From Candidatus Woesebacteria bacterium (GTDB lineage Bacteria > Patescibacteriota > Microgenomatia > UBA8517): DNA of 64,000 bases. Shown here piece by piece: positions 14,927 through 47,568 of the stretch; the first letter of the stretch is position 1; each line of letters starts with the position of its first letter. The stretch covers positions 938,918-1,002,917 of the forward strand of contig CP066686.1 of the NCBI GenBank assembly GCA_016432365.1, given 5' to 3'. The position numbers and the translations under genes were made by a program. The notes beneath the pieces were generated by a model, which was not told where the DNA came from, did not search any database, and was given only the letters and a program-made list of their open reading frames with translations.

Positions 14927-15142
14927 TTAATCCTCTTTACTTTGCATACCCAATAACCATAAAACTGCTTCTTTTTTATAACGGCGATCTCCACGGGAGT
15001 TTATGCGAATTGCAGGAAGTTTACCTCGCTTACCCCATCTTTTTATAGTTAAAGGAGAAACACGAAGAACATCTGCAACTTCACGAACCGTGAGAAGGTC
15101 GGGTAGATTTTCTAATTTAACTTTTTTCTTTGGTTCATCCAT
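14927..15142 (-). CDS. excisionase/MerR-family helix-turn-helix DNA-binding protein (~72 aa)
   Basis: LTVREVADVLRVSPLTIKRWGKRGKLPAIRINSRGDRRY matches HTH_17/excisionase-type; same HTH type as N-terminus of the 23355 giant ORF. Start assumed at MDEPKK. Confidence 0.6.
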   Translation of the reverse strand: MDEPKKKVKLENLPDLLTVREVADVLRVSPLTIKRWGKRGKLPAIRINSRGDRRYKKEAVLWLLGMQSKED

Positions 15143-15304
15143 TTTGTTTATGTTGTATATACTTTGTTCCTGTCCCCTGCCTATCAACGATCTATCTTAA
15201 TCACAAGATATCAAAGGGGTTCAGTCGTGTCAAGAGGTATTAAATAAGACTTTTTTGTTGACATCCATCCTTACCTTTGGCATAATCCCCATAGTTTTGA
15301 AAAT

Positions 15305-18487: not shown

Positions 18488-20950
<2,463 letters not shown>

Positions 20951-20970
20951 GATATCCTAATAAGCTTTGA

Positions 20971-23198
<2,228 letters not shown>

Positions 23199-23354
23199 TT
23201 AAGTATTTAATATCGCTTTATGCTTGTCAAGCAATTTTTAATCAAAAACTTGGCCAAAATTGACTAAAATGGCCTTGACAGTTTATTAGTTTAGAATCAA
23301 TATGGGTATTGGAACTTGGACAAATTCTAAAATCGTGTACAAGTTTCTAACTTT

Positions 23355-26300
23355 ATGACTGCCAATCATTTACGAATTCAGGAAGCTGCTAATATTTTAG
23401 GTATTTCCTCTAAAACCTTACGCCGGTGGAATAAAAGTGGAAAACTGGTTCCCGAACAAATAAGCCACGGCGGGCAACGCTTCTATACAAAAGAACAACT
23501 AATCAACTTTCGATCTCTAAACACCAAAACCAATTTAATCCCCAATCCCCAACCAAAACAGACAGGAAATGATTTCAAAACCAGCCACCTATTGCCAACA
23601 ATCGGTTTTGTTTTGTTGTGGTCAATCCTTTTTACAATTCTTGGTCTTGGTTCTCTGTTTACTGTATCAGCTGTTGGAGGCCAATCAGACATACTGTCCG
23701 CTTTGTTAAATCCACCCGCTACTCTACCCAAAAATATAACCAAGGCTGATATAAATAGTCCCTCAGTTTTAGCTGCCGAAAGTATAATCCCCGCCTACAC
23801 TTTCAATGTTAACTTGCCTGCTAAGTTTTCCGACAGTGTCACTTTTTTGGAAGATATAACTGTTCCCAATGTAATCTACAGCCTTAAAGCCGGGGATGGC
23901 ATTAGTATCACAACCGGTCAAACACCAACTATTAAAAGTACTGTAGCACTTACTGCCGGCGATGGTATTACAATTGACGGGTTTAAAGTTACAAACAGCA
24001 GTCTTGGTTCTTCACAAAACATTTTTAAGACTATTTCAGTATCAGGACAGTCTGATGTTGTAACTGATACGAACACAGATACGCTTACTTTTGCAGGAAG
24101 TGGTGTAACCATCACCACTGATGCTACAGCTGACAAGATTACCTTTACTGCGGTGGAACCTGATTATACGTTGTCCGGATGGACCGACTCCGGAACGAGC
24201 GTGGGGCTTACAACGACAACTGATTCGGTCGTGGTCGATGGATTAACGTTTGGCAACGCCACCATTACCAGTGGGAAAAAGATTCTTCCCAGTGTCGACC
24301 TGGGAGCAGATTTGGGATCTTCGTCGTATCGGTTTAACAATCTATATGTTGCAAATATTAATTCCAATTCCTCCCAAAGTTTCTCCGGACAAACAACGTT
24401 TTCCTACGAACCTACAGCTACGACGCTTACTCAAGCCTCTGTTCTTATCAACCCCACGACATCGGTCGCCAACGGCCAGCTCCTGGCGTTAGGTATTGCC
24501 GGATACCAGAAAGCGTTGATTGATGAAGATGGAGATATTATTCTGGGTTACTCCGACGCCACGAGCGCACCCGCGTCGGATTACCCGCTCAATATCTACG
24601 GCCACAGCGGTACTCAGGTAGCATATATTGATACTACCGGGTTGGCCAATGTCCAAACATTAAATCTCGCCAATAACGCAATAACTTCAGGTGGCGCACT
24701 TACGATTACTCCGGCAGCTGGATCAAATCTAAATGTAGCTCTCTCGACAACCGGAGATCTTGCCGTTAACACTGATGATTTGTATGTGGATACTTCAACA
24801 GGAAGGGTAGGAATAGGAACAACAACTCCAGAAACGCCTCTTCAAGTAAAATTAGAGGGATTAGCATTAAAGCTTGGCTTTAGTGGTTCTGGTGGTAATA
24901 GTTCTTATATGAGCTATAACGGCTATGGCTTTATGGGTTATGACTATAACGGAGGAAATCTCAACATGATTGTTCAGGGTGTTTCTGGTACAGGAATTGA
25001 ATTTAACGTTAATAACTCCACCTTTGGTTCCGGCACAGTCATGCAGATACTCACGAATGGTAATGTTGGTATCGGCACCACTGCCCCCACCAGTAAACTC
25101 CACGTCTCCGGTGCGGTTACCGGCAAAGCACTGGCAATTTTTGACGAAACTGGTGACCAGAATATTTTGGTCGCTTCGGCATCAGGAAGTCCGAAATTTG
25201 TTATTGACCACTCTGGCAACGTTGGTATAGGCACAACTACTCCTGGCACTTGGGGTAAATTAGAAATAGTAACAGGTAGCATCTCTTACTTCTTCAGCAC
25301 TGGAGGACTTGGTACAACTGGCAACGTTAATCCCTGGTATGTCAGTTATACCAACGGACCCAGTAATGGATCCACGATGTATTTGGCTAGTAATTACATG
25401 CGACTCTACGGCGGCTCAACCGGCACCAATGGAACTCTACAAATGTATACAGGCTCTACCGAAAAAATGCGCATTGATGGATCCGGCCTTGTCGGTATCG
25501 GCACCACCTCTCCCACCTCTCTACTTCATGTTTCTGGCAAAGTAACTGGAAAAGCATTGGCTATTTTTGATGAAACCGGGGATCAAGATATTTTTACAGC
25601 TTCCGGTTCAGGGACGACCAGACTTCAGTTGTCGCATGCCGGTACTTTGACTTCATGGGGGTCGATTGTCACAAATGGAACAGAAAACGGAGGAACAGGA
25701 ACTGGATTAATTACCATTAATAACTCTGGCGGCCTTGATTTGTACGTGGCTGTTGGTAGTGGCGCCTATATTACCGCCAGACCATCATACCCGCTGTATA
25801 TTACCAGCGGTATTTTGACGGTCAATTCAGGAACAAGCGATATGTACTTTAAGCAGAACTCAGTTACACCTATTACAAGTGAGGGCACCGGGGCTGTTGC
25901 AAACACTCTTTATCTCAAAACTGGCAATGTAGGTATTGGCACAACGAACCCGGCTTCTAAGCTATCAGTGATTGGCTCAGGTTCTGGAGAGACTGTTATT
26001 CAAGTTACCTCTGGTGTTTCGGGATCAACGTCCTCCGACGGTTTTTTCTTGGGGTATGCTGCTGATAACAACATATTAGTATGGGGAAAAGATGGAAACA
26101 GTATTAAATTTGGCACTACCGACATTGAAAGACTAAGACTGAGTAATGCAGGAGGATTGTCATTAGGAGATTCAACATGGAATGGGACTGATCCCGGTGT
26201 CGGAAGTATGGCTATACAATCAAAACTGGGAATTGGAACCTCAAGTCCTACCAGTAAACTTCACTTAACAGGTGCTGTCACAGGCAAGGCGCTTGCCATT

Positions 26301-27659
26301 TTTGATGAAACTGGGGACCAGAATATTTTAGTCGCATCAGCATCTGGGACAAATCGGTTGACGCTAACAAACGCTGGTAGATTGGGAGTTGGAACCTCAA
26401 GTCCCACTGCAATATTACATACAAATGGCACAAACCAATATTTGGGAGAGTTCGATTATTCAGGGTCTCCGGTATTTACAGTGTATTTAGTTACCGGGGG
26501 TCAAATGGGACTTTTTTCTGGTTCGAACAGTTTAGGACTTAGTGCCAGTTCTCCTACCGGAAACCCTCATATGACAATTGCCACGACGGGAAATGTTGGA
26601 ATAGGGACTAGCATAACCAATCCTACTTCGAAACTCCATGTTGGGGGTAGTGTAACAGGCAAAGCCCTGGCGATTTTTGATGAAACCGGAGATCAGAATA
26701 TAATCACAGCCAGCGCATCAGGAGTTGGTAAATTTGTTGTAACTCGAGCAGGAAGTGTTGGTATCGGTACCACTAATCCCACTTCCGCGAGTGGGTTTGC
26801 TCCCTTGTTACATATTGCAGGTGATAATCCTGGCATAGTACTACAAGGGCCTGGCACATACGAGGTCGGTGCAGGATCAACCGGTGGAGTTAAATGGTTA
26901 TATATTGGAGACAGTTCTGCATCAATGAGATGGGGTGTAAATGGTGTTGGTGTTGGACCTGATAACTCACCAGACTACTTCTTTGATGTTCAGGGTAATT
27001 TACACGCTGATGGAACTGTATCTATCGATACTTTAGGGACAGGCACTGTATATAGTAATGCCGGAGTGTTAACTAACGTCGATCCATCTGATAAAAATCT
27101 TAAACAAAACATTGTGGATCTAAGTAGTGGTACTTTGGAAAAGGTGCTTGGATTAAAACCTGTATCATATAACTGGAAATCAACAGACGATGGAGCTTTA
27201 GGATTTATTGCACAAGATGTAGAGCAAGTATTCCCGGAGCTCGTCGGACACAACAACGACGGAACACTGGGATTATTTACCACCCAGTTCATACCGGTGC
27301 TTACTAAGGCCATACAAGAACAACAGCTACAGATTGACGAGATAAAGCTTTCAAGTGCAAGTGCGACAATAACCAACAGCGACTGGGGCGCACTAACAAG
27401 CTTGGTGAATTCGATTAAAACAACATTAAGCGAAGTCCAAGAAAAACTGACCGCCATGGCTGATGAAATATTTACTAAAAAGATTCATACGGAAGAGATT
27501 TGTGTAGGAACGGTGAATAATGAGACCTGTGTCAATAAAGAACAATTGGATAGTGTAATAAAGTTATTACCTACACCCACTCCTCTGCCAACAGCTGCAC
27601 CAAACGCCACAGATTCTGCAGAGCTCGTTACCCCTAGCCCTACACCAACTTCTGATTGA
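23355..27659 (+). CDS. giant (1434 aa) membrane-anchored fibre-like protein: N-terminal excisionase-type HTH, one TM helix, G/T/S-rich beta repeats, C-terminal S74-type intramolecular chaperone (tail-fibre/endosialidase-like) domain
   Basis: HTH (LRIQEAANILGISSKTLRRWNKSGKL); TM (TIGFVLLWSILFTILGLGSLF); >=4 copies of ~40-aa repeat (GIGTT.PTSKLHVSGAVTGKALAIFDETGDQNILVASASG); C-terminal DKNLKQNIVDLSSGTLEKVLGLKPVSYNWK...GFIAQDVEQVFPELV...IPVLTKAIQEQQ matching Peptidase_S74 auto-chaperone. Confidence 0.8.
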   Translation: MTANHLRIQEAANILGISSKTLRRWNKSGKLVPEQISHGGQRFYTKEQLINFRSLNTKTNLIPNPQPKQTGNDFKTSHLLPTIGFVLLWSILFTILGLGSLFTVSAVGGQSDILSALLNPPATLPKNITKADINSPSVLAAESIIPAYTFNVNLPAKFSDSVTFLEDITVPNVIYSLKAGDGISITTGQTPTIKSTVALTAGDGITIDGFKVTNSSLGSSQNIFKTISVSGQSDVVTDTNTDTLTFAGSGVTITTDATADKITFTAVEPDYTLSGWTDSGTSVGLTTTTDSVVVDGLTFGNATITSGKKILPSVDLGADLGSSSYRFNNLYVANINSNSSQSFSGQTTFSYEPTATTLTQASVLINPTTSVANGQLLALGIAGYQKALIDEDGDIILGYSDATSAPASDYPLNIYGHSGTQVAYIDTTGLANVQTLNLANNAITSGGALTITPAAGSNLNVALSTTGDLAVNTDDLYVDTSTGRVGIGTTTPETPLQVKLEGLALKLGFSGSGGNSSYMSYNGYGFMGYDYNGGNLNMIVQGVSGTGIEFNVNNSTFGSGTVMQILTNGNVGIGTTAPTSKLHVSGAVTGKALAIFDETGDQNILVASASGSPKFVIDHSGNVGIGTTTPGTWGKLEIVTGSISYFFSTGGLGTTGNVNPWYVSYTNGPSNGSTMYLASNYMRLYGGSTGTNGTLQMYTGSTEKMRIDGSGLVGIGTTSPTSLLHVSGKVTGKALAIFDETGDQDIFTASGSGTTRLQLSHAGTLTSWGSIVTNGTENGGTGTGLITINNSGGLDLYVAVGSGAYITARPSYPLYITSGILTVNSGTSDMYFKQNSVTPITSEGTGAVANTLYLKTGNVGIGTTNPASKLSVIGSGSGETVIQVTSGVSGSTSSDGFFLGYAADNNILVWGKDGNSIKFGTTDIERLRLSNAGGLSLGDSTWNGTDPGVGSMAIQSKLGIGTSSPTSKLHLTGAVTGKALAIFDETGDQNILVASASGTNRLTLTNAGRLGVGTSSPTAILHTNGTNQYLGEFDYSGSPVFTVYLVTGGQMGLFSGSNSLGLSASSPTGNPHMTIATTGNVGIGTSITNPTSKLHVGGSVTGKALAIFDETGDQNIITASASGVGKFVVTRAGSVGIGTTNPTSASGFAPLLHIAGDNPGIVLQGPGTYEVGAGSTGGVKWLYIGDSSASMRWGVNGVGVGPDNSPDYFFDVQGNLHADGTVSIDTLGTGTVYSNAGVLTNVDPSDKNLKQNIVDLSSGTLEKVLGLKPVSYNWKSTDDGALGFIAQDVEQVFPELVGHNNDGTLGLFTTQFIPVLTKAIQEQQLQIDEIKLSSASATITNSDWGALTSLVNSIKTTLSEVQEKLTAMADEIFTKKIHTEEICVGTVNNETCVNKEQLDSVIKLLPTPTPLPTAAPNATDSAELVTPSPTPTSD

Positions 27660-27707
27660 TATTTATTAAAATATGTACAATAATCAGAAGACAAAACTTA
27701 GACATAT

Positions 27708-28460
27708 ATGGAACAAGAAGAAAAAAAGTTACCCAGAAAAATATCTTTTAAAATAATTTTGACTGCAGTTGCAGTCCTTCTTATTTTATGCGGTGCCGCA
27801 GGAACATACTATTTCTATAACCAAAACCAAAAGGCGTTGCAACTTCTAAAAGACCCTACAGCAGCACAAAAAGAAGAAGTCAAAACGATACTGGCCAAGC
27901 TATCGATACTGATAGAACTACCCCAGGACGAAGAACCTCAAGTTGCAACCGTATTGGATTACAGCAAACTCAAGGACCAGACATTTTTTGCCAAGGCCCA
28001 AAATGGCGACAAAGTCTTGATTTATACAAAGGCCGGCAAAGCAATCTTATATAGGCCAAGCACGAACAAAATAATAGAAGTGGGCCCTATTAGTTTAGGG
28101 CAAAACCAGGAAGCGCCTATTAAAGTGGCCGTTTACAATGGAACAAACATCGCAGGACTTTCCAATACTTTTGCTACCAATATAGTAAAAACTGCATCAA
28201 ATGTGAATGTTGTTACTAGGGCAAACGCCGCAAATAAATACGAAAGGACTATAGTTGTTGATTTAACAAATAAAGAAGGACTTGCAAAACAAATGGCTGA
28301 TCTTATTGGAGGTACCGTATCAACACTCCCCGAAGGCGAGGTAAAGCCAGCAGATGCTACCATAGATCTCTTGATAATACTTGGAACAAACTATACCGGT
28401 TTATCCGCCCCAGCGCCGGCTTCCCCATCTATAGCTCCAACAGCAACCCCAACCCAATAG
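27708..28460 (+). CDS. LytR_C (cell-envelope-related) domain membrane protein
   Basis: N-terminal TM, C-terminal VAVYNGTNIAGLSNTFATNIVKTASNVNVVTRANAANKYERTIVVDL resembling LytR C-terminal domain. Confidence 0.6.
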   Translation: MEQEEKKLPRKISFKIILTAVAVLLILCGAAGTYYFYNQNQKALQLLKDPTAAQKEEVKTILAKLSILIELPQDEEPQVATVLDYSKLKDQTFFAKAQNGDKVLIYTKAGKAILYRPSTNKIIEVGPISLGQNQEAPIKVAVYNGTNIAGLSNTFATNIVKTASNVNVVTRANAANKYERTIVVDLTNKEGLAKQMADLIGGTVSTLPEGEVKPADATIDLLIILGTNYTGLSAPAPASPSIAPTATPTQ

Positions 28461-43009: not shown

Positions 43010-44623
43010 ATGGAAGAACTGTTACAGAAGTATCTAAAAGGTTTTAGCGGTGTCGATGAGGCTACAGTTGCCCGAATTAGGGATCTTTTGGTTCCTGTTT
43101 CTAATGCCGACAAAATTCTGGTAAGCGCCATCAAAACGAATATGCCACCGAAGGAGTTCGCAGAATGGCTTGACACTAACATCCAGAAGAAATTGGCGGA
43201 AGAAAAGGCAAAACCTGCTCCGGTGACTAAGTCAGCCTCAGGAAACGTTGATTCAACCTCCGAGGCATTGAACGCTTACCTGGCAAAATTCCCGGAGATT
43301 GTTGGAGCAAACAGGGCTCAAATCCGAAGTTTGGTCAGGATGGCAGATCCGGAAGAAGCAATATCAATTTTGGAAACGGCTGCCCTATACAGTGCCTCAC
43401 CAAACGATGTGATGGAACTTTTGAGAAAGGCGCCTCAGCGTCAGCAAGAAAGCGCCCCTCAAGAAGCGGCCGATACCACAAAGGTTGAAGAAACCGAAGC
43501 CAAACCTCAACCAGAAGATGGTGGCAACAAGAGTGTTCAGGTAGCCGAGACTAATGGCAAACGAGGTTGGGGCGGATTCAAACGCGGCAAATCTGCTAAG
43601 AAGACAGACCCCGATCGAAATCAACCTGGACAGCAACAAAGCCCGAAAGCGAAAATCCCGACCTGGGCCACATGGATCGGAGTCGGAATCCTGGTTTTGG
43701 CTGTGTTGGGCGCGATATATTACTACGTCGCCTTTGTCCCCCATCCTCAACGGGCAGAAAACACTGAAACCCTAGGGCCAGCAGCGGTAGTGGAAGCACC
43801 ACCGGTCGTCAATCTGCAGGCAGTAGATTACAAAAGCGTAGCTTTTGTCGGGGTTACTCTGTTTTTTATGTTCATCGCCGGAACGGCTTTGATACCCCTC
43901 GGAATCCTTGATGCCAAAGAACGCCTGCAAGTATCAGACATCAGTGTGGCACTTGGAGGTCTATTCGCAAACTATCTCGCCATCTGGAAACCTTTTGTCG
44001 CATTCTGGACTACGTTGGTTCCGATGTTCAATGAGCAATCCACAGCTGTCCTTTTTGGCATGCTTATTACAGGGATTGTCGTCACAAAAGCAGTGACCGG
44101 AGGACGTGATACAACAAACCTCGGCGTATACTTCGGAGGGTTGGCGATTATTGGAGCAAGCTTAGGAAATATGGGTGCATTCCAGGCAGCTTTCAACATT
44201 CCTTACCAACCGGTATACATGCTCCTGGGAATACCTGCGGCCATCATAGCTAAGCAAACAAGCGCGTTACAATACAGCTTGCTTGTGTATTCGGTACTTT
44301 TCCTGGCCATTGGTGCGTACCTGCTTGACATCGTCTATCCGAGAGAGAAAAAACCCAGATATGGGGCTTTCATTTCCTTTGCCTCGGTTGTTGGAATATA
44401 CTACCTGGCATTACTCAAATTCGATGCACAATACGCCCTACTCTTCGGCATAACCGCCGGAATTCTCGCAGCAGTTCTTGCCCGAAAAGCAGGCACTACA
44501 GAGACTTCAGGTGAAAATAAGCTGACAAAAATTGTTCAGCGTATTTTTGAGTACACCCCTTGGGACGGCGCTTGTCTCGGAATTGTTGTTCTAGTCCTTC
44601 TGCGTTTGGCAGGCATTGCCTAG
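43010..44623 (+). CDS. polytopic membrane protein with duplicated ~55-aa N-terminal cytoplasmic repeat and K/Q/P-rich linker
   Basis: Internal repeat (LQKYLKGFSGVDEATVARIRDLL... vs LNAYLAKFPEIVGANRAQIRSLV...), then ~8 hydrophobic helices. Confidence 0.55.
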   Translation: MEELLQKYLKGFSGVDEATVARIRDLLVPVSNADKILVSAIKTNMPPKEFAEWLDTNIQKKLAEEKAKPAPVTKSASGNVDSTSEALNAYLAKFPEIVGANRAQIRSLVRMADPEEAISILETAALYSASPNDVMELLRKAPQRQQESAPQEAADTTKVEETEAKPQPEDGGNKSVQVAETNGKRGWGGFKRGKSAKKTDPDRNQPGQQQSPKAKIPTWATWIGVGILVLAVLGAIYYYVAFVPHPQRAENTETLGPAAVVEAPPVVNLQAVDYKSVAFVGVTLFFMFIAGTALIPLGILDAKERLQVSDISVALGGLFANYLAIWKPFVAFWTTLVPMFNEQSTAVLFGMLITGIVVTKAVTGGRDTTNLGVYFGGLAIIGASLGNMGAFQAAFNIPYQPVYMLLGIPAAIIAKQTSALQYSLLVYSVLFLAIGAYLLDIVYPREKKPRYGAFISFASVVGIYYLALLKFDAQYALLFGITAGILAAVLARKAGTTETSGENKLTKIVQRIFEYTPWDGACLGIVVLVLLRLAGIA

Positions 44624-44730
44624 CACTAGCGACTCACCCCCGTGAGACAGATATTTCTTACAAAAAAATAAGAAACAATCATCTCACGGGGGCTTACGTA
44701 TCGTTTTTTGTAAATTGGAAGGAGATACAA

Positions 44731-44919
44731 ATGAACTTTATATCGACCCTGAACAGTATCCAGATCTTTTTTCTGGTCACAGGAATTGCATCAGCACTGT
44801 TCGTGGCATACGAAGCGGTACTGGCCATCAAACGACGCGGCGGTGATATGGGTTTGGCTTTGGTTGCCGGACTCCTAGCCCTGGTTTCGCTTTATATGGC
44901 CCTGTTCGTGAAACCGTAA
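44731..44919 (+). CDS. small membrane protein (62 aa)
   Basis: GGAAGGAG RBS 6 nt upstream of ATG 44731; two hydrophobic helices. ORF-track ORF 44560 is likely 5'-overextended. Confidence 0.45.
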   Translation: MNFISTLNSIQIFFLVTGIASALFVAYEAVLAIKRRGGDMGLALVAGLLALVSLYMALFVKP

Positions 44920-44938
44920 GTTTTGCAAGGAGGTAGAA

Positions 44939-45775
44939 ATGATTCCTAAATTCAAAATCAGTGAACGAGGAAATATCCAACAAGGATTCCTTGTCATTCT
45001 GCTTATTGCGATTGTGGTATTTGTCATCATATCCCTTTTCGGCGCATATGCTGTAAACACCACCGTCGTTCTGGAAGAAATTGAGAGGGAAAAAACAATG
45101 GGGATCCTAATTCAGATCCCGAGTTCAAGTTTGCCACCCGAACTGAAGATCGATAAACGCGGAGTTGATCAATATGTGATCTTCAAATATTTTTCGATCG
45201 TCGGAGACGGTGTCGAAATCCCCGGTGACCAAGAATACGCGGCCGCTTACGCCACCAATACAGAACTGACAACTCTGGATTGCGGTGACCAAATCACCTC
45301 AGTTGGTATCATTTCCAAGGCTTTTGAGCCGGAAATCGGTGCAGCCGAAGCCGGTGCCAAGGTAAGCATTATGATTCTGGGAGCCAGAGCCATAACAAAC
45401 GGCGGATGCGAAGTTGGGCCACTGGTAAGAAATCCATTGTACGATGAGAATTTCGAACCCTATGCCGCTTACCCTTCCATCTGGAACATTCCGGGGTGCC
45501 TCCTACGTGTATGGACTGCTCCCGGTATTTACAGGGAAAGTTCTTGCCTTGAGGGCGGATATCGTCCAACATTAAATTGGCAGCGCATAGGTGCAATCGA
45601 TATCCCGAACGGTCAGGGCTTATTCCGTCTCGTTGCGGCAGATAACGGCCTTTGGATGCATGCGATTAGCACCATTGACCTAAATCAGATCTACAATACC
45701 TACAACGTTGATGGAACGATTAAGGAAAAGATCGAAAACATTCTACAAAAGGTATTTGGAGGAAGTTCACAATGA
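44939..45775 (+). CDS. membrane-anchored secreted hypothetical protein
   Basis: AGGAGG RBS; N-terminal TM anchor, Cys-containing extracellular domain. Confidence 0.5.
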   Translation: MIPKFKISERGNIQQGFLVILLIAIVVFVIISLFGAYAVNTTVVLEEIEREKTMGILIQIPSSSLPPELKIDKRGVDQYVIFKYFSIVGDGVEIPGDQEYAAAYATNTELTTLDCGDQITSVGIISKAFEPEIGAAEAGAKVSIMILGARAITNGGCEVGPLVRNPLYDENFEPYAAYPSIWNIPGCLLRVWTAPGIYRESSCLEGGYRPTLNWQRIGAIDIPNGQGLFRLVAADNGLWMHAISTIDLNQIYNTYNVDGTIKEKIENILQKVFGGSSQ

Positions 45776-46233
45776 CTCAGAATAACCAAAACCAACAACC
45801 GGCCAAGAAAGAGCCAAAGGTCATCATTTTCGTGACCCTGATGGCCATCGTGGCGGTTGCTATTTTCGGCAGTGCTGCTGGCAGGATCGTCGCATACGCA
45901 CTCTGTGCAGTATTTCTTGGCGCCTTGGGATACGGTACTTACCGGTTTTTCAGCCAGGACGTCAAGTACTACGTCGGAATTCCGCTTGTTGCGGCCCTTT
46001 TGGGTTTCGCATTCGGAGCCTTTGAAGATGCAGGCAAGTACGGTGCCAGGATCGGCGGATCTTTCCAGTCGATCGCGTGGCTTCTGCTTTGTCCTGTTAT
46101 CTTTGTGGTCTTTGGCATCGCATTCCGCTGGTTTCAAAAGAACCAGAGTAAGATCGACGAAAAGATCAACAATGGCCTGGAAGAGCTTGACCGCGGTCTT
46201 GACAAAATTGTCGATCAGATCAAGCTTAAGTGA
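45772..46233 (+). CDS. 4-TM membrane protein
   Basis: ATGA overlap with upstream gene; four hydrophobic helices; followed by terminator. Confidence 0.5.
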   Translation: MTQNNQNQQPAKKEPKVIIFVTLMAIVAVAIFGSAAGRIVAYALCAVFLGALGYGTYRFFSQDVKYYVGIPLVAALLGFAFGAFEDAGKYGARIGGSFQSIAWLLLCPVIFVVFGIAFRWFQKNQSKIDEKINNGLEELDRGLDKIVDQIKLK

Positions 46234-46254
46234 TTTGTAAATTTGTGAGTACTT

Positions 46255-46306
46255 ACCGCTCGTTGCACACCTTAATAGTGAAAAAGCAACGGGCGGTTTT
46301 TCTTTG
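46255..46306 (+). terminator. rho-independent terminator
   Basis: ACCGCTCGTTGC ... GCAACGGGCGGT stem then TTTTTCTTTG. Confidence 0.55.
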
Positions 46307-46392
46307 CCCATCGAAGCTCGAAGAGCAAAGTTGGGTTTGGAAAAACCCCCTCGCTTGACAAAAAACGCCTATAGGGTTATTATTCGCACGTC

Positions 46393-47568
46393 ATGACAGC
46401 CGAACGCACAAACGACTCCGAAACTAGTGATCTACCTCTTCCTGAGGTGTATAAAAACGTCCCCAGAATTCCAAAAACTGAATCTGCGATTACCACCGTC
46501 CAGCAAATCGAGGGCGAAGTTGTCGAAGACGAAAATCAAAAACCGGACCGCGCCAGAGCAGCCCATGACGCAATTCTTAAAACAAGACATATCCTTTCTA
46601 CTGCCATAAGAGGCGCAGATGAAGAAACAACGCAAATGGTTAGGTCCATTCTCCAAGAAAGATTAGAACAGGAACAGATTGAGGCGATGGATGCCACAGA
46701 CAGAACAATATTTGTGTCACTTAAAGAACAGGTCGTTAACGTAAATGAAGCTCTAACCGATTTTTACGGAACTCCAACTTCAATTTTGATGCTTTACAGC
46801 TACGAATCAGAAAAAGACCCCCAGACATACCCCCCATTAGATACGGCAAATGGGATTAAAGGGATGTTAAGGCTTCACAGAGATTTGTATCAAGAAATTG
46901 CATCGGCCCCCGTAATTGCTAGTGAGTTGGCTGAAGCCAAAACACAGACGGCCATTATTCCTGCTCAAAAAGACGTAAAAATATTAAGAATTGACGCGGA
47001 AAGAGAAGTGGCCGAAAAGTTTTCTCTGGCAGCTGACTCCCTCAAAAAAGCGGCCAGCGATCGCGCTGCTGTTCGAAGCGCACATATTAGAGGAGCAGCG
47101 GAAACAATATCAACAGCCGTCGGTGAAGCTCCCGTTCAAATAGCAAGATCCTTTGCCGACAAGCTCGGCGAATGGATAAAAACAAGCGATGACGCAATGG
47201 GAACCGTATCTTTTATGGGCGGTGCCGTTGCCGGACCTTTGGCGTTAATTATTGAAGGCCCCGCTCTTTCACCGATTCTCGCTACTTGGATTTCTACTTG
47301 GCCTTGGGGAACGGCCACGGCAGTTGGATTTGGAGCATTAGGCGGAGCGATAGGAGGGTTTGTTACTTGGAAAGCAATCAGATTTGCCGCCGAATATAGT
47401 TGGAGTGTTGTACAAAATGTTTGGGAATCCATAGAACAAAAACTGGGTGAATGGGGCGAAAAGATTGGTAATTCCAAGTTGTTTAGCGGGAAAAAGGACC
47501 AAACAAATCACAACCAAAACCAGAATAACAGAGGTAAAGGCAATAACAGGACGGACCACGAAGCATAA
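46393..47568 (+). CDS. hypothetical protein with C-terminal Gly-zipper TM hairpins
   Basis: Acidic/coiled N-terminal region, C-terminal GGAVAGPLALIIEG...GFGALGGAIGGFVTW hydrophobic segments, N/Q-rich tail. Confidence 0.5.
   Translation: MTAERTNDSETSDLPLPEVYKNVPRIPKTESAITTVQQIEGEVVEDENQKPDRARAAHDAILKTRHILSTAIRGADEETTQMVRSILQERLEQEQIEAMDATDRTIFVSLKEQVVNVNEALTDFYGTPTSILMLYSYESEKDPQTYPPLDTANGIKGMLRLHRDLYQEIASAPVIASELAEAKTQTAIIPAQKDVKILRIDAEREVAEKFSLAADSLKKAASDRAAVRSAHIRGAAETISTAVGEAPVQIARSFADKLGEWIKTSDDAMGTVSFMGGAVAGPLALIIEGPALSPILATWISTWPWGTATAVGFGALGGAIGGFVTWKAIRFAAEYSWSVVQNVWESIEQKLGEWGEKIGNSKLFSGKKDQTNHNQNQNNRGKGNNRTDHEA

What the first reader, a model, noticed from the sequence alone, without database searches (positions are those of the whole stretch)
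23355..27659. 1434-aa HTH-TM-fibre protein: cytoplasmic excisionase-type DNA-binding domain fused through one TM helix to a repeat-rich extracellular fibre with a phage-tail-fibre auto-chaperone
One uninterrupted ORF contains four parts:

- a MerR/excisionase-type HTH at residues 1-50
- a single TM helix
- ~1200 aa of G/T/S-rich beta repeats, including at least four ~40-aa near-identical units
- a C-terminal Peptidase_S74 intramolecular-chaperone domain, typical of phage tailspikes and endosialidases

The topology (DNA-binding domain inside, a huge fibre outside) resembles ToxR/CadC-like one-component membrane regulators, but with a phage-like adhesin ectodomain. A standalone paralogue of the HTH lies at 14927-15142. 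The near-identical internal DNA repeats (~120 bp at 25081, 25500, 26230 and 26620) could mediate recombinational length variation.
Basis: partly seen in the sequence, partly recalled or inferred. Interest (0 to 1): 0.6.

Follow-up and report, generated by a model that had tools for sequence, protein, structure and literature searches.

The report
Membrane-anchored surface fibre with DNA-binding head
A tiny symbiotic bacterium (Candidatus Woesebacteria) encodes a long phage-like adhesion fibre anchored in its membrane by one helix, with a DNA-binding domain on the cytoplasmic side; related genes carry the same short DNA motif at their promoters, which suggests the fibre protein controls its own gene.

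Summary
The 1434-aa ORF (23355-27659, +) is real.
- a MerR/BldC-like HTH at aa 1-60
- a disordered linker, then one TM helix at aa 80-107
- a roughly 1130-aa beta-rich fibre
- a Peptidase_S74 chaperone domain with an SDxxxK dyad (S1245/K1250)

The internal DNA repeats are not near-identical. They are 56-77% identical, so recombinational length variation is unsupported.

The fusion is not an artefact. About 35 of the 120 best homologues, all from Patescibacteria, share it. Paralogues carry the same ectodomain behind an ordinary signal peptide, which places the fibre outside the cell and the HTH inside. The fibre is homologous to the Bdellovibrio MAT prey-recognition fibres.

The gene sits at a conserved chromosomal locus, not in a prophage, next to an F1-ATPase operon.

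New here:
- HTH(1-8 copies)-TM-ectodomain is an abundant Patescibacteria architecture (3634 clusters at E<=1e-10, proteins up to 5310 aa).
- An 11-nt motif, AAACTT(G/A)GACA, lies at about +1..+11 of the predicted transcript in 16 of 18 HTH-TM genes examined. It was found before 1 of 107 other genes in the ten tabulated loci, and that one is a fibre paralogue whose HTH has been replaced.

This points to autoregulation by a membrane-tethered HTH. That step is inferred, not shown.

The parts
23355..27659 (+). Whole gene: HTH-TM-fibre protein, 1434 aa. The identical protein is in NCBI as 'tail fiber domain-containing protein [Candidatus Woesebacteria bacterium]' on a 1.08-Mb contig.
23355..23534 (+). 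aa 1-60: cytoplasmic MerR/BldC-like winged HTH (beta-alpha1-alpha2-hairpin-alpha3). T21 L22 R23 R24 W25 R42 Y44 are invariant across 26 homologues.
   Evidence: Pfam. Alignment A1. AF2 model with pLDDT ~96. Foldseek best domain matches: RacA-DNA 5i44 (rmsd 2.1 A) and BldC-DNA 6ama (rmsd 1.8-2.2 A). Profile against PDB: BldC, E 2.5e-10.
23535..23591 (+). aa 61-79: P/N/Q/K-rich flexible linker. Its length ranges from about 20 to 110 aa among homologues.
   Evidence: pLDDT ~52. Gappy, unconserved columns in A1.
23592..23675 (+). aa 80-107: the single transmembrane helix, a type II signal anchor with the N terminus inside.
   Evidence: Hydropathy. Helix 80-107 with pLDDT 88-94. Net-positive N-side in all 33 homologues.
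23727..24764 (+). aa ~125-470: conserved membrane-proximal base or stalk of the fibre. It is 42-57% identical between orthologues, and 62 invariant columns surround RFNNLWVANINSNSSQSFSGQTTFSY.
24765..27086 (+). aa 471-1244: variable distal fibre. It contains nine VGIGTTxPxxxL capping-loop motifs and is homologous to the Bdellovibrio MAT trimeric beta-helix fibres.
   Evidence: PDB sequence hits 8ond (Bd2133, E 4e-11), 8oml, 8ojn, 8on4 and 8ol4. Motif count. PHROGs tail-fibre families. Distal part not conserved between orthologues.
25056..26747 (+). Span holding the four dispersed ~52-aa repeat units (25056-25211, 25482-25637, 26217-26372, 26592-26747) with the identical core TGKALAIFDETGDQ. 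Their DNA is only 56-77% identical.
27087..27344 (+). aa 1245-1330: Peptidase_S74 intramolecular chaperone and autoprotease. The predicted cleavage is at S1245 (SDKNLK, Ser-Lys dyad S1245/K1250).
   Evidence: Pfam. SDxxxK conserved in homologues. S, D and K invariant in A2. Profile hits to S74 domains 8jov, 6f45, MyRF 7dc3 and 3gud. Fold hits MyRF ICA 7dc3, K1F 3gw6 and GA-1 3gud.
27345..27659 (+). aa 1331-1434: two long helices, a small beta-hairpin with C1383/C1392, LPTPTP, and a Pro/Thr-rich tail. This part would leave with the chaperone after cleavage. The same tail also occurs in orthologues that lack S74.
23275..23303 (+). Predicted sigma-70-type promoter of the fibre gene: TTGACA, 17 nt, CAATAT. 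The -35 box is invariant in the four-locus alignment, and the same TTGACA-N17-TTAAAT layout recurs at 10 of 14 sites.
   Evidence: read from the alignment; the consensus scan did not list it
23312..23346 (+). Operator-like element at about +1..+35: GAACTTGGACA (23312-23322) and the inverted partner AAACTTGTACA (23336-23346, minus strand).
   Evidence: The hairpin alternative was tested.
23246..23256 (+). Third motif-like site, AAACTTGGCCA, between the two divergent -35 boxes. It lies in a conserved block, TTG(G/A/C)CCAAAA.
27694..27704 (+). Exact copy of the motif, AAACTTAGACA. It lies 9 nt after a TTGATA-17-AATAAT promoter and 3 nt before the ATG of the downstream LytR_C gene (27708-28460).
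18488..23195 (-). Conserved divergent neighbour: a 261-aa membrane protein of unknown function followed by F1-ATPase alpha, gamma, beta and epsilon. The reason for the association is unexplained.
   Evidence: Adjacency in other genomes.
14927..15187 (-). Small soluble HTH_17/MerR-like protein (86 aa). A ~70-aa counterpart is present near the locus in five other genomes. It is an alternative candidate binder of the motif.

Best explanation
**What it is.** The gene encodes a host- or prey-recognition fibre of an episymbiotic Patescibacterium.

**Assembly (inferred from homology).**
- The protein inserts as a type II membrane protein. The N-terminal 60-aa BldC/MerR-like HTH and a flexible linker stay in the cytoplasm. 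One helix spans the membrane. About 1300 aa are exported.
- Outside the cell, the C-terminal S74 domain chaperones trimerisation of the beta-helical fibre and then cuts itself off at S1245.
- This leaves a fibre of roughly 80 nm. The length is extrapolated from the ~55-nm Bd3182 fibre. The base is conserved and the tip is variable and lineage-specific.
- The fibre is held in the membrane by three TM helices, with three HTHs on the cytoplasmic face.

**Role of the HTH (inferred from comparative genomics).** The tethered HTHs bind the sequence AAACTT(G/A)GACA, often with an inverted or direct partner. This sequence sits at the transcription start of the protein's own gene, so the protein would repress or tune its own synthesis. 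It would also tie that locus to the membrane, as a transmembrane one-component circuit. Whether fibre engagement outside the cell changes DNA binding inside is open.
For: **Architecture**
- ORF, HTH, TM and S74 are all present.
- About 35 of the 120 best homologues, from independent assemblies, have HTH, then TM, then the same stalk.

**Topology**
- About 30 homologues have the same stalk directly after a signal-peptide-like N terminus.
- The N-side is net positive in 33 of 33 HTH-type homologues.

**Fibre type**
- The fibre region hits the Bdellovibrio MAT fibre structures 8ond, 8oml, 8ojn, 8on4 and 8ol4.
- It carries nine copies of their capping-loop motif and the same SDxxxK S74 motif.
- MAT fibres are shown experimentally to be exported trimeric adhesins that self-cleave at the S74 serine (PMC10769870).

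**Base constant, tip variable**
- Orthologues align over aa 1 to about 290-630 (most over 1-430 or more) at 36-57% identity and diverge beyond that.

**Cellular, not phage**
- The gene sits at the same chromosomal locus in at least 12 genomes: a p261/F1-ATPase operon on one side and LytR_C and UppS on the other.

**HTH is a DNA-binding type**
- The MerR signature residues are invariant.
- The nearest solved relatives are BldC (E 2.5e-10) and RacA, both solved bound to DNA.

**Operator**
- The motif is present, with at most one mismatch and in the sense orientation, at the promoter of 16 of 18 non-redundant HTH-TM genes.
- These include a different gene family (the ~330-aa 2xHTH-TM genes in L020, L021 and L023) and a distant giant protein (L022).
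- In the ten loci with gene tables it was found upstream of 9 of 10 HTH-TM genes. Of the 107 other genes it precedes only one, a fibre paralogue in L006 whose HTH is replaced by a GIY-YIG domain. It precedes none of the five small soluble HTH genes.
- Its position is fixed: 7-8 nt after the -10 box in most sites and 11 nt in L023.
- The first arm is conserved in sequence even where no RNA hairpin can form.
Against: - No experiment of any kind exists for this family.
- DNA binding by the HTH, and its binding to this particular motif, are inferred.
- The loci are partly orthologous, so the 16 of 18 count overstates independence.
- The motif is absent in L024 and altered in L007.
- In the window the motif also precedes the LytR_C gene, which has no HTH. 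In other genomes the LytR-like gene lacks it.
- A syntenic small soluble HTH of the same family could be the real binder.
- Topology rests on hydropathy, the charge rule and homologues, not on a dedicated predictor or experiment.
- Trimerisation and cleavage are extrapolated from homologues. The monomer AF2 model of the C terminus is only moderate (pLDDT 65).
- A membrane-tethered HTH has restricted reach, although ToxR and CadC show that this arrangement works.
Confidence: 0.5

Rival explanations
1. RodZ-like anchor. The cytoplasmic HTH does not bind DNA. It is a protein-protein module that docks the fibre to MreB or another cytoplasmic partner, as the HTH of RodZ does. The promoter motif would then be bound by another factor.
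For: RodZ is a known HTH-TM-ectodomain protein whose HTH binds MreB (established knowledge). The sister family of ~330-aa 2xHTH-TM proteins is the divergent neighbour of mreB in both loci examined and is followed by a PEGA protein. In L007 the fibre gene lies 4 kb from mreB. HTH-TM is attached to many unrelated ectodomains, as a generic anchor would be.
Against: The HTH is MerR/BldC-type, not XRE-type, and it keeps the family's invariant DNA-contact signature (T-L-R-R-W ... R-x-Y) across very divergent proteins. The motif tracks HTH-TM genes specifically, which this model leaves as coincidence. mreB is not near the fibre gene in the window or in L001-L006.
Confidence: 0.15
2. The fibre part is as in the best explanation, but the motif is the operator of the small soluble HTH protein (14927-15187 and its ~70-aa counterparts) or of another regulator. 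The tethered HTH would bind DNA non-specifically or at other sites, acting as a RacA-like nucleoid-membrane tether.
For: A ~70-aa soluble HTH of the same family lies near the locus in the window, L001, L002, L003, L005 and L022. RacA, a chromosome anchor, is among the best structural matches. The LytR_C gene of the window has the motif but no HTH.
Against: The soluble HTH gene itself never has the motif upstream (0 of 5). It is only 33% identical to the fibre's HTH. The set of genes carrying the motif is almost exactly the set encoding tethered HTHs, including in Saccharibacteria (L023), where no soluble HTH was seen in the 7-kb locus.
Confidence: 0.2
3. The conserved element is an RNA feature rather than a protein operator: a 5'-terminal stem-loop or leader for mRNA stability or translation of these long messages. 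The HTH would be unrelated to it.
For: The element starts at the predicted +1. An inverted partner 13-15 nt downstream allows a hairpin in the window, L001, L002 and L023 (z about -2).
Against: No stable hairpin forms in L004, L014, L019, L020 or L021 (z of -0.6 or higher), although the first arm is conserved there. TTAGACA paired with TGTCCAA gives an A-C mismatch with no compensatory change. L006 and L022 have direct, not inverted, repeats.
Confidence: 0.1
4. Artefact or phage remnant. The HTH-fibre fusion would result from a mis-assembly or a missed frameshift, or the gene would be a prophage tail fibre with a fused excisionase.
For: S74 and the PHROGs tail-fibre hits. Phage-like homologues without a TM exist. 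One genome (L013) has a frameshift in this gene.
Against: The same fusion is intact in dozens of independent assemblies. The neighbours are housekeeping genes in conserved order, with no phage genes. The L013 frameshift lies after the TM and the start of the stalk, not between the HTH and the TM.
Confidence: 0.03

Closest known systems
Bdellovibrio bacteriovorus MAT (mosaic adhesive trimer) fibres, e.g. Bd2133 and Bd3182 (Caulton et al. 2024, PMC10769870)
   Same: The fibre body is sequence-homologous. It has the same V-G-x-G/N-x-x-P-x-x-x-L capping loops, a C-terminal S74 with SDxxxK or an alternative tip, a constant base with swapped tips, and is used by a bacterium that lives on other bacteria.
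   Different: MAT fibres start with a cleavable signal peptide and attach to the cell through an N-terminal domain. This protein has a cytoplasmic HTH and an uncleaved TM anchor. The host is a monoderm-like Patescibacterium, not a Gram-negative predator.
BldC (Streptomyces), a minimal MerR-like DNA-binding protein (PDB 6ama, 6amk)
   Same: It is the closest solved relative of the HTH (E 2.5e-10; rmsd about 2 A). It has the same minimal winged HTH with no effector or dimerisation domain. BldC binds variable numbers of repeats, which resembles the variable motif arrays seen here.
   Different: BldC is a 68-aa soluble protein. Here the domain is the N terminus of a 1434-aa membrane protein.
ToxR/CadC/TcpP membrane-bound one-component regulators
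   Same: The order is a cytoplasmic DNA-binding domain, one TM helix and an extracytoplasmic domain, and the protein binds promoter DNA while it stays in the membrane.
   Different: Their DNA-binding domain is an OmpR-type winged helix and their sensor domain is small. Here the domain is MerR/BldC-type and the ectodomain is a fibre of more than 1100 aa. No common ancestry.
Myelin regulatory factor (MyRF/MYRF)
   Same: To my knowledge it is the only well-known protein that combines a DNA-binding domain, an S74/ICA self-cleaving trimerisation domain and a TM helix. Its ICA domain is the best fold match to the C terminus.
   Different: The order in MyRF is DBD-ICA-TM, so cleavage releases the DNA-binding trimer. 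Here the order is DBD-TM-fibre-ICA, so cleavage releases only the chaperone and the DBD stays tethered.
RodZ
   Same: It has an N-terminal cytoplasmic HTH, one TM helix and an extracytoplasmic domain. The sister 2xHTH-TM family found here lies next to mreB.
   Different: RodZ has an XRE-type HTH that binds MreB, not DNA, and a small periplasmic domain.

Membership tests
Peptidase_S74 / intramolecular chaperone auto-processing (ICA) domain | Match to the family profile above the curated threshold | tested here: met
   PF13884, 59.5 bits against a cutoff of 22, E 3.9e-16, aa 1245-1297
Peptidase_S74 / intramolecular chaperone auto-processing (ICA) domain | Catalytic Ser-Lys dyad in an S-D-x-x-x-K motif at the domain start | tested here: met
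   S1245-D-K-N-L-K1250. S, D and K are invariant in 14 homologues. The motif aligns with SDERLK and SDRRIK of solved S74 domains.
Peptidase_S74 / intramolecular chaperone auto-processing (ICA) domain | ICA fold | tested here: met
   Top Foldseek hits are MyRF ICA 7dc3 (E 1.9e-4), K1F 3gw6 and GA-1 3gud. The model is only moderately confident: pLDDT 80-89 in the domain and 65 overall.
Peptidase_S74 / intramolecular chaperone auto-processing (ICA) domain | Trimerisation-dependent autocleavage | not testable with these tools
   Needs expression of the C-terminal fragment with and without S1245A.
Bdellovibrio-type MAT fibres | Sequence homology of the beta-helical fibre body, with capping-loop motifs | tested here: met
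   8ond E 4.3e-11, 8oml 5.4e-8, 8ojn 2.5e-5. Nine loops of the form VGIGTTxPxxxL.
Bdellovibrio-type MAT fibres | N-terminal signal peptide followed by the conserved ~130-aa MAT base domain | tested here: not met
   The N terminus is HTH, linker and TM. Homology of the stalk to the MAT base domain could not be tested because no MAT N-terminal sequence was available. Signal-peptide-type paralogues do exist in Patescibacteria.
MerR family transcription regulators (canonical) | N-terminal winged HTH of MerR type | tested here: met
   PF13411 and PF00376 above cutoffs. Fold hits to BmrR, MtaN, CueR and others.
MerR family transcription regulators (canonical) | Long antiparallel coiled-coil dimerisation helix and a C-terminal effector-binding domain | tested here: not met
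   After aa 60 come a disordered linker and a TM helix. The profile match ends at position 47 of 69 of MerR_1. The protein belongs with the minimal BldC/RacA/excisionase-like branch.
ToxR-like transmembrane transcription activators | OmpR/PhoB-type winged-helix DNA-binding domain | tested here: not met
   No Trans_reg_C hit. The domain is MerR/HTH_17.
ToxR-like transmembrane transcription activators | Cytoplasmic DBD, single TM, extracytoplasmic domain | tested here: met
   (the topology is inferred, not measured)
Phage tail fibre / prophage gene | Located among phage structural genes | tested here: not met
   The neighbours are F1-ATPase, M32 carboxypeptidase, LytR_C, a hydrolase and UppS. 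The same order is seen in at least 12 genomes.
RodZ | XRE-type HTH that binds MreB | tested here: not met
   The HTH type is MerR-like. MreB binding is not testable here.

The most novel reading that the evidence does not exclude
Patescibacteria possess a phylum-wide class of transmembrane one-component proteins. One to eight BldC-like HTHs are tethered by a single helix to ectodomains that range from about 130 aa to more than 5000 aa and include fibres, lipases and RodZ-like modules. Each would bind a shared operator, AAACTT(G/A)GACA, at its own transcription start. That would physically couple surface structures, and possibly host contact, to gene expression and to the position of the locus at the membrane. 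The conserved pairing of the fibre gene with a divergently transcribed, atypical F1-ATPase operon could mean that host attachment and energy metabolism are co-regulated from one intergenic region.
Probability: 0.3. Interest if true: 0.85.

Novelty: new variant of a known kind. Interest (0 to 1): 0.66.

Why it matters
How ultrasmall Patescibacteria recognise their hosts and regulate anything at all is largely unknown. Reviews of the field mention type IV pili and unnamed adhesins, and none of the papers I searched or checked mentions this architecture.

The locus offers three things:
- a concrete candidate host-recognition fibre, with solved homologues in a predatory bacterium
- a testable pairing of a regulator with its operator, which would be a first handle on transcriptional control in this phylum and a possible inducible-promoter part for genetics
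- an example of a DNA-binding domain permanently tethered under a giant surface structure, in the reverse arrangement to eukaryotic MyRF

If the HTH instead docks to MreB, the protein would be an integrin-like link between surface fibres and the cytoskeleton. That would be equally unexpected.

Tried and rejected
- **Single-sequence homologue search with aa 1-126.** The word prefilter found only 9 candidates and 1 hit, so the search was wasted. It was replaced by profile searches with alignment A1.
- **The search for related loci with A1.** It was replaced by the stalk alignment A4, which returned only 12 loci because the patterns were strict.
- **Recombinogenic DNA repeats.** Rejected.
- **Prophage or assembly artefact.** Rejected.
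- **RNA hairpin as the conserved feature.** It forms in only 4 of 9 loci and was kept as a minor rival.
- **Motif enrichment in the window by count alone.** Not significant: 2 exact matches against 0.75 expected, and 5 against 3.9 with one mismatch allowed. The signal lies in the positions and in the cross-genome association.
- **The 261-aa neighbour as an ATP synthase c subunit.** Only a weak, sub-threshold match (PF00137, E 0.05-0.24; phmmer not significant). No canonical a or c subunit was found in the 64-kb window, which says nothing about the rest of the genome.
- **Rfam.** Only two tRNAs in the window.
- **Literature.** Six searches and two targeted reads found no description of HTH-TM fibres in Patescibacteria. 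Absence from this library is not proof of novelty.

Full report
**1. The observation**

- Pfam finds MerR_1, MerR and HTH_17 at aa 6-53 and Peptidase_S74 at aa 1245-1297, all above their curated cut-offs.
- PHROGs tail-fibre families cover aa ~617-1333.
- Hydropathy shows one hydrophobic stretch in the whole protein, aa ~79-107. The 78 residues before it hold 12 K/R and 4 D/E.
- An AlphaFold2 model built on 26 homologous N-termini gives a confident small domain at aa 1-60 (pLDDT about 96; strand, two helices, hairpin, helix). It is followed by a low-confidence linker at aa 61-79 and a confident helix at aa 80-107.
- Four ~50-aa units share the identical peptide TGKALAIFDETGDQ.
- A small HTH ORF lies at 14927..15187 on the minus strand.

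One sub-claim fails. The repeats are not near-identical at the DNA level. The four 119-nt copies are 66-77% identical to the reference copy. In register they are 56-65% identical, and the longest shared exact run is 17 nt. The peptide is conserved while the codons have drifted. That indicates selection on the protein and makes recombinational length variation unlikely.

**2. The fusion is real and recurrent**

The identical protein is deposited as a 'tail fiber domain-containing protein' of a Candidatus Woesebacteria MAG, on a 1.08-Mb contig. I classified the N-termini of the 120 best homologues.
- About 35 have one or two MerR-like HTHs, then one hydrophobic segment, then a region homologous to query aa 126-470, the 'stalk' (examples).
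- About 30 have the same stalk directly after an N-terminal signal-peptide-like segment (MKKLLLIIANIL...).
- The remainder have no TM and look like phage fibres.

The signal-peptide paralogues show that the stalk and fibre are exported. All 33 HTH-type proteins have a net-positive N-side. Together these place the HTH in the cytoplasm.

The named sources are Woesebacteria, Collierbacteria, Gottesmanbacteria, Pacebacteria, Microgenomates and 'Patescibacteria group'. A few MAGs labelled as proteobacteria carry the same Patescibacteria locus and are probably mis-binned.

**3. What the ectodomain is**

A sequence search of the PDB hits five Bdellovibrio bacteriovorus fibre fragments: 8ond (Bd2133, E 4e-11), 8oml, 8ojn, 8on4 and 8ol4. 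It also hits the S74-bearing distal tail fibre of phage S16 (6f45).

These Bdellovibrio proteins are the MAT (mosaic adhesive trimer) fibres of Caulton et al. 2024 (PMC10769870). That paper reports the following:
- they are exported and surface-located trimeric beta-helical fibres used for prey recognition
- they have a constant base and swappable tips
- they carry a capping-loop motif, V-G-G/N-pi-x-x-P-x-x-x-L
- in 13 of 21 cases they end in an S74 domain with SDxxxK, which self-cleaves (S782 in Bd3182)

The Woesebacteria protein has nine such loops (VGIGTTxPxxxL) and the motif S1245-D-K-N-L-K1250. S, D and K are invariant among homologues. A profile of the C-termini finds solved S74 domains, including MyRF. 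The C-terminal model hits MyRF ICA (7dc3), the K1F endosialidase chaperone (3gw6) and GA-1 (3gud).

Orthologues align with the query only over the N-terminal part: aa 1 to about 290-630, at 36-57% identity. Beyond that they have different distal parts, with or without S74. This is the same logic as in MAT fibres: a constant base and a variable tip.

By homology I therefore infer a trimeric fibre of about 80 nm that sheds its last 190 residues after folding. The length is scaled from the 55-nm Bd3182 fibre.

**4. Genomic context**

There is no prophage. The neighbours are as follows:
- a 261-aa membrane protein of unknown function, transcribed divergently
- F1-ATPase alpha, gamma, beta and epsilon
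- an M32 carboxypeptidase
- downstream, a LytR_C protein, a hydrolase and UppS

The same arrangement recurs around orthologues in L001-L005 and L007. It also recurs in 10 of 12 loci recovered from species-representative genomes, whether the fibre there is HTH-type or signal-peptide-type. A distant 2xHTH-TM giant protein (P0088, L022) also lies divergently from an operon of the 261-aa homologue, a b-like protein, OSCP and alpha. I cannot tell whether this adjacency is functional or just conserved gene order.

**5. The HTH-TM module is a general Patescibacteria device**

An exhaustive profile search with the N-termini against 1.84 billion cluster representatives gives 30349 hits at E<=1e-3, 3634 at E<=1e-10 and 84 at E<=1e-30.
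- Of the 245 best proteins from the two profile searches, 162 are at least 250 aa long. Of those, 139 (86%) have exactly one predicted TM.
- 45 are at least 600 aa and 13 are at least 2000 aa. The largest is 5310 aa.
- One protein has eight tandem HTHs before its TM.
- Pfam sees little in the ectodomains. Occasional hits are S74, a GDSL lipase and Gly_rich_2.
- A large sub-family of ~300-340 aa has two HTHs, a TM and a ~130-aa ectodomain. In both loci examined it is the divergent neighbour of mreB and precedes a PEGA protein. It looks like a RodZ analogue.

**6. What the HTH is**

It is a minimal MerR-like winged HTH.
- The closest solved relative by sequence is BldC (E 2.5e-10).
- The best domain-level structural matches are RacA-DNA (5i44, rmsd 2.1 A) and BldC-DNA (6ama, rmsd 1.8-2.2 A).
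- T21 L22 R23 R24 W25 R42 Y44 are invariant in 26 homologues. This is the MerR-family signature T-x-R-x-Y ... R-x-Y.
- There is no coiled-coil or effector domain, so it is not a canonical MerR regulator. It is not OmpR-type either, so it is not a ToxR-family member.

**7. A conserved operator-like motif**

Aligning the intergenic region of four orthologous loci showed invariant blocks. One is AAACTT(G/A)GACA.

In the window:
- The core ACTTRGACA occurs only twice in 64 kb. One copy is 32 nt before the fibre ATG and the other is 3 nt before the ATG of the next gene, LytR_C.
- With one mismatch allowed there are five sites. Three lie in the 160-bp intergenic region: 23246 (+), 23312 (+) and 23336 (-).
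- By count alone this is not above chance. The positions are what stand out.

Across loci:
- The motif sits 7-8 nt after a TTGACA-N17-TTAAAT promoter in 10 of 14 sites, which is about +1..+11 of the transcript.
- An inverted partner (TGTCCAAG) usually follows 13-15 nt later, even when that places it inside the coding sequence. L006 and L022 have direct repeats instead.
- In ten loci with gene tables, the motif (at most one mismatch, sense strand, within 120 nt upstream) precedes 9 of 10 HTH-TM genes. Of the 107 other genes it precedes only one, a fibre paralogue whose HTH has been replaced. It precedes none of the five small soluble HTH genes, seven 261-aa genes and three mreB genes.
- It also precedes the unrelated ~330-aa 2xHTH-TM genes in L020 and L021. 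In a Saccharibacteria locus (L023) it appears as AAACCTGGACA, 11 nt after the -10 box.
- Overall, 16 of 18 non-redundant HTH-TM genes have it. L007 has a variant and L024 has none. P0171 in L024 also has a deviant recognition helix.

RNA folding gives a modest hairpin in only four of nine loci. No compensatory changes are seen. The conserved feature is therefore the sequence, not a structure.

A transcription-factor gene that carries its own family-specific site at its promoter is the classic signature of autoregulation. BldC-like proteins are known to bind variable arrays of repeats. I therefore propose that the tethered HTH binds this element.

**8. Mechanism, and what is shown versus inferred**

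Shown by sequence:
- the domain order and the single TM
- the S74 catalytic motif
- homology to MAT fibres
- the conserved locus
- the abundance of the architecture
- the association of the motif with HTH-TM genes

Inferred from homologues or general rules:
- N-in topology
- export, trimerisation and self-cleavage
- a role in binding host cells

Inferred from comparative genomics only:
- DNA binding to the motif and autoregulation

Speculative:
- Fibre assembly or engagement alters DNA binding.
- The nascent HTH acts in cis on its own promoter during coupled transcription, translation and membrane insertion.
- There is regulatory coupling with the divergent ATPase operon.

**9. Rivals**
- A RodZ-like protein-docking role for the HTH. 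The mreB neighbourhood of the sister family supports it. The invariant DNA-binding signature and the motif association argue against it.
- The small soluble HTH is the real binder, and the tethered HTH acts as a RacA-like tether.
- The element is a 5' RNA feature.
- Artefact or prophage. This is effectively excluded.

**10. Novelty**

The fibre and the S74 domain are known kinds. A MerR/BldC-like HTH tethered beneath them, the breadth of the HTH-TM architecture in Patescibacteria, and the shared promoter motif were not found in any paper I could search or read. Public databases label these proteins only as 'MerR family regulator', 'excisionase family DNA binding protein' or 'tail fiber domain-containing protein'. 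I rate the finding as a new variant of known kinds: a membrane-bound one-component regulator combined with a MAT-type fibre.

Noticed in passing
window 18488-23195 (-); also L001-L005, L007, L008-L019, L022: The operon next to the fibre gene is unusual for an F-type ATP synthase. It consists of a 261-aa protein, then alpha, gamma, beta and epsilon. In the window and L001-L007, which have gene tables, no a, b or delta gene is adjacent. L022 has a b-like protein and OSCP. Alpha, beta and gamma score below NCBIfam's atpA, atpD and gamma cut-offs, and alpha scores almost as well against the Mycoplasma gliding F1-like ATPase MMOB1660. The 261-aa protein has a signal-like N terminus and a ~170-aa beta-rich part. 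Its C-terminal two-helix hairpin (GVEALGRNP loop) resembles subunit c only weakly (PF00137, E 0.05-0.24) and has no acidic residue in the second helix. The protein is 42% identical between distant genomes.
   Followed up: partly
L020 4001-5005; L021 4001-4909; L023 3001-3891: There is an abundant ~300-340-aa Patescibacteria family with two MerR-like HTHs, one TM and a ~130-aa ectodomain with no Pfam match. In both Microgenomates-type loci it is the divergent neighbour of mreB and is followed by a PEGA protein, so it may be a RodZ analogue with a different HTH type. Its promoter carries the same AAACTTAGACA motif.
   Followed up: partly
window 27694-27704 and 27708-28460: An exact copy of the motif lies 3 nt before the LytR_C gene downstream of the fibre gene, behind its own TTGATA-17-AATAAT promoter. 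The LytR-like genes at the same position in L001, L002 and L006 lack it.
   Followed up: partly
window 14927-15187 (-); L001 905-1123; L002 790-1008; L003 1040-1255; L005 11930-12139; L022 12743-12958: A ~70-86-aa soluble HTH_17/MerR-like protein is kept near the locus in six genomes. None of the five copies in the tabulated loci has the motif upstream.
   Followed up: partly
L013 7046-7768 and 7524-14204: In a Gottesmanbacteria chromosome the orthologue is split by a frameshift just after the TM and the start of the stalk. The pieces are a 240-aa HTH-TM ORF and a 2226-aa ORF in another frame. This is either an assembly indel error or a real, possibly phase-variable, frameshift.
   Followed up: partly
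L006 1118-1249 and 1256-7891: A tandem paralogue has a GIY-YIG domain in place of the HTH, ahead of the TM and stalk. The insertion is flanked by a 26-nt direct repeat, GGATCCCCGCTTACGCGAGGATGACA (1118-1143 and 1224-1249), and the motif pair is retained upstream. This suggests that a small mobile GIY-YIG gene landed between the promoter and the gene.
   Followed up: no
L012 5257-6981: Two genes (183 aa and 244 aa, not identified) and a 53-aa ORF are inserted between the conserved promoter and motif pair (5257 +, 5281 -) and the HTH-TM fibre gene.
   Followed up: no
window 25119-25160, 25545-25586, 26280-26321, 26655-26696: The 14-aa peptide TGKALAIFDETGDQ is identical in all four repeat units. 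It recurs almost unchanged in fibres of other species (P0002, P0003, P0009, P0010), and in a more diverged form (TGKALSIFNETGDQ) in P0034, despite synonymous DNA divergence. Such strong conservation inside an otherwise variable fibre is unexplained.
   Followed up: no
window 27345-27659; P0012-P0016, P0004, P0006: The C-terminal tail (coiled coil, C-x8-C hairpin, LPTPTP and a Pro/Thr-rich end) is conserved even in orthologues that have no S74 domain. Its role is therefore independent of the chaperone.
   Followed up: no
L012, L014, L018: MAGs labelled Gammaproteobacteria, Alphaproteobacteria and Pseudomonadales carry this Patescibacteria-specific locus of fibre, 261-aa protein and F1 alpha. 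The contigs are probably mis-binned.
   Followed up: no
window 43010-47568: A GC-richer stretch (0.44-0.47 against about 0.41 elsewhere) holds three ORFs of 537, 278 and 391 aa with no Pfam match.
   Followed up: no
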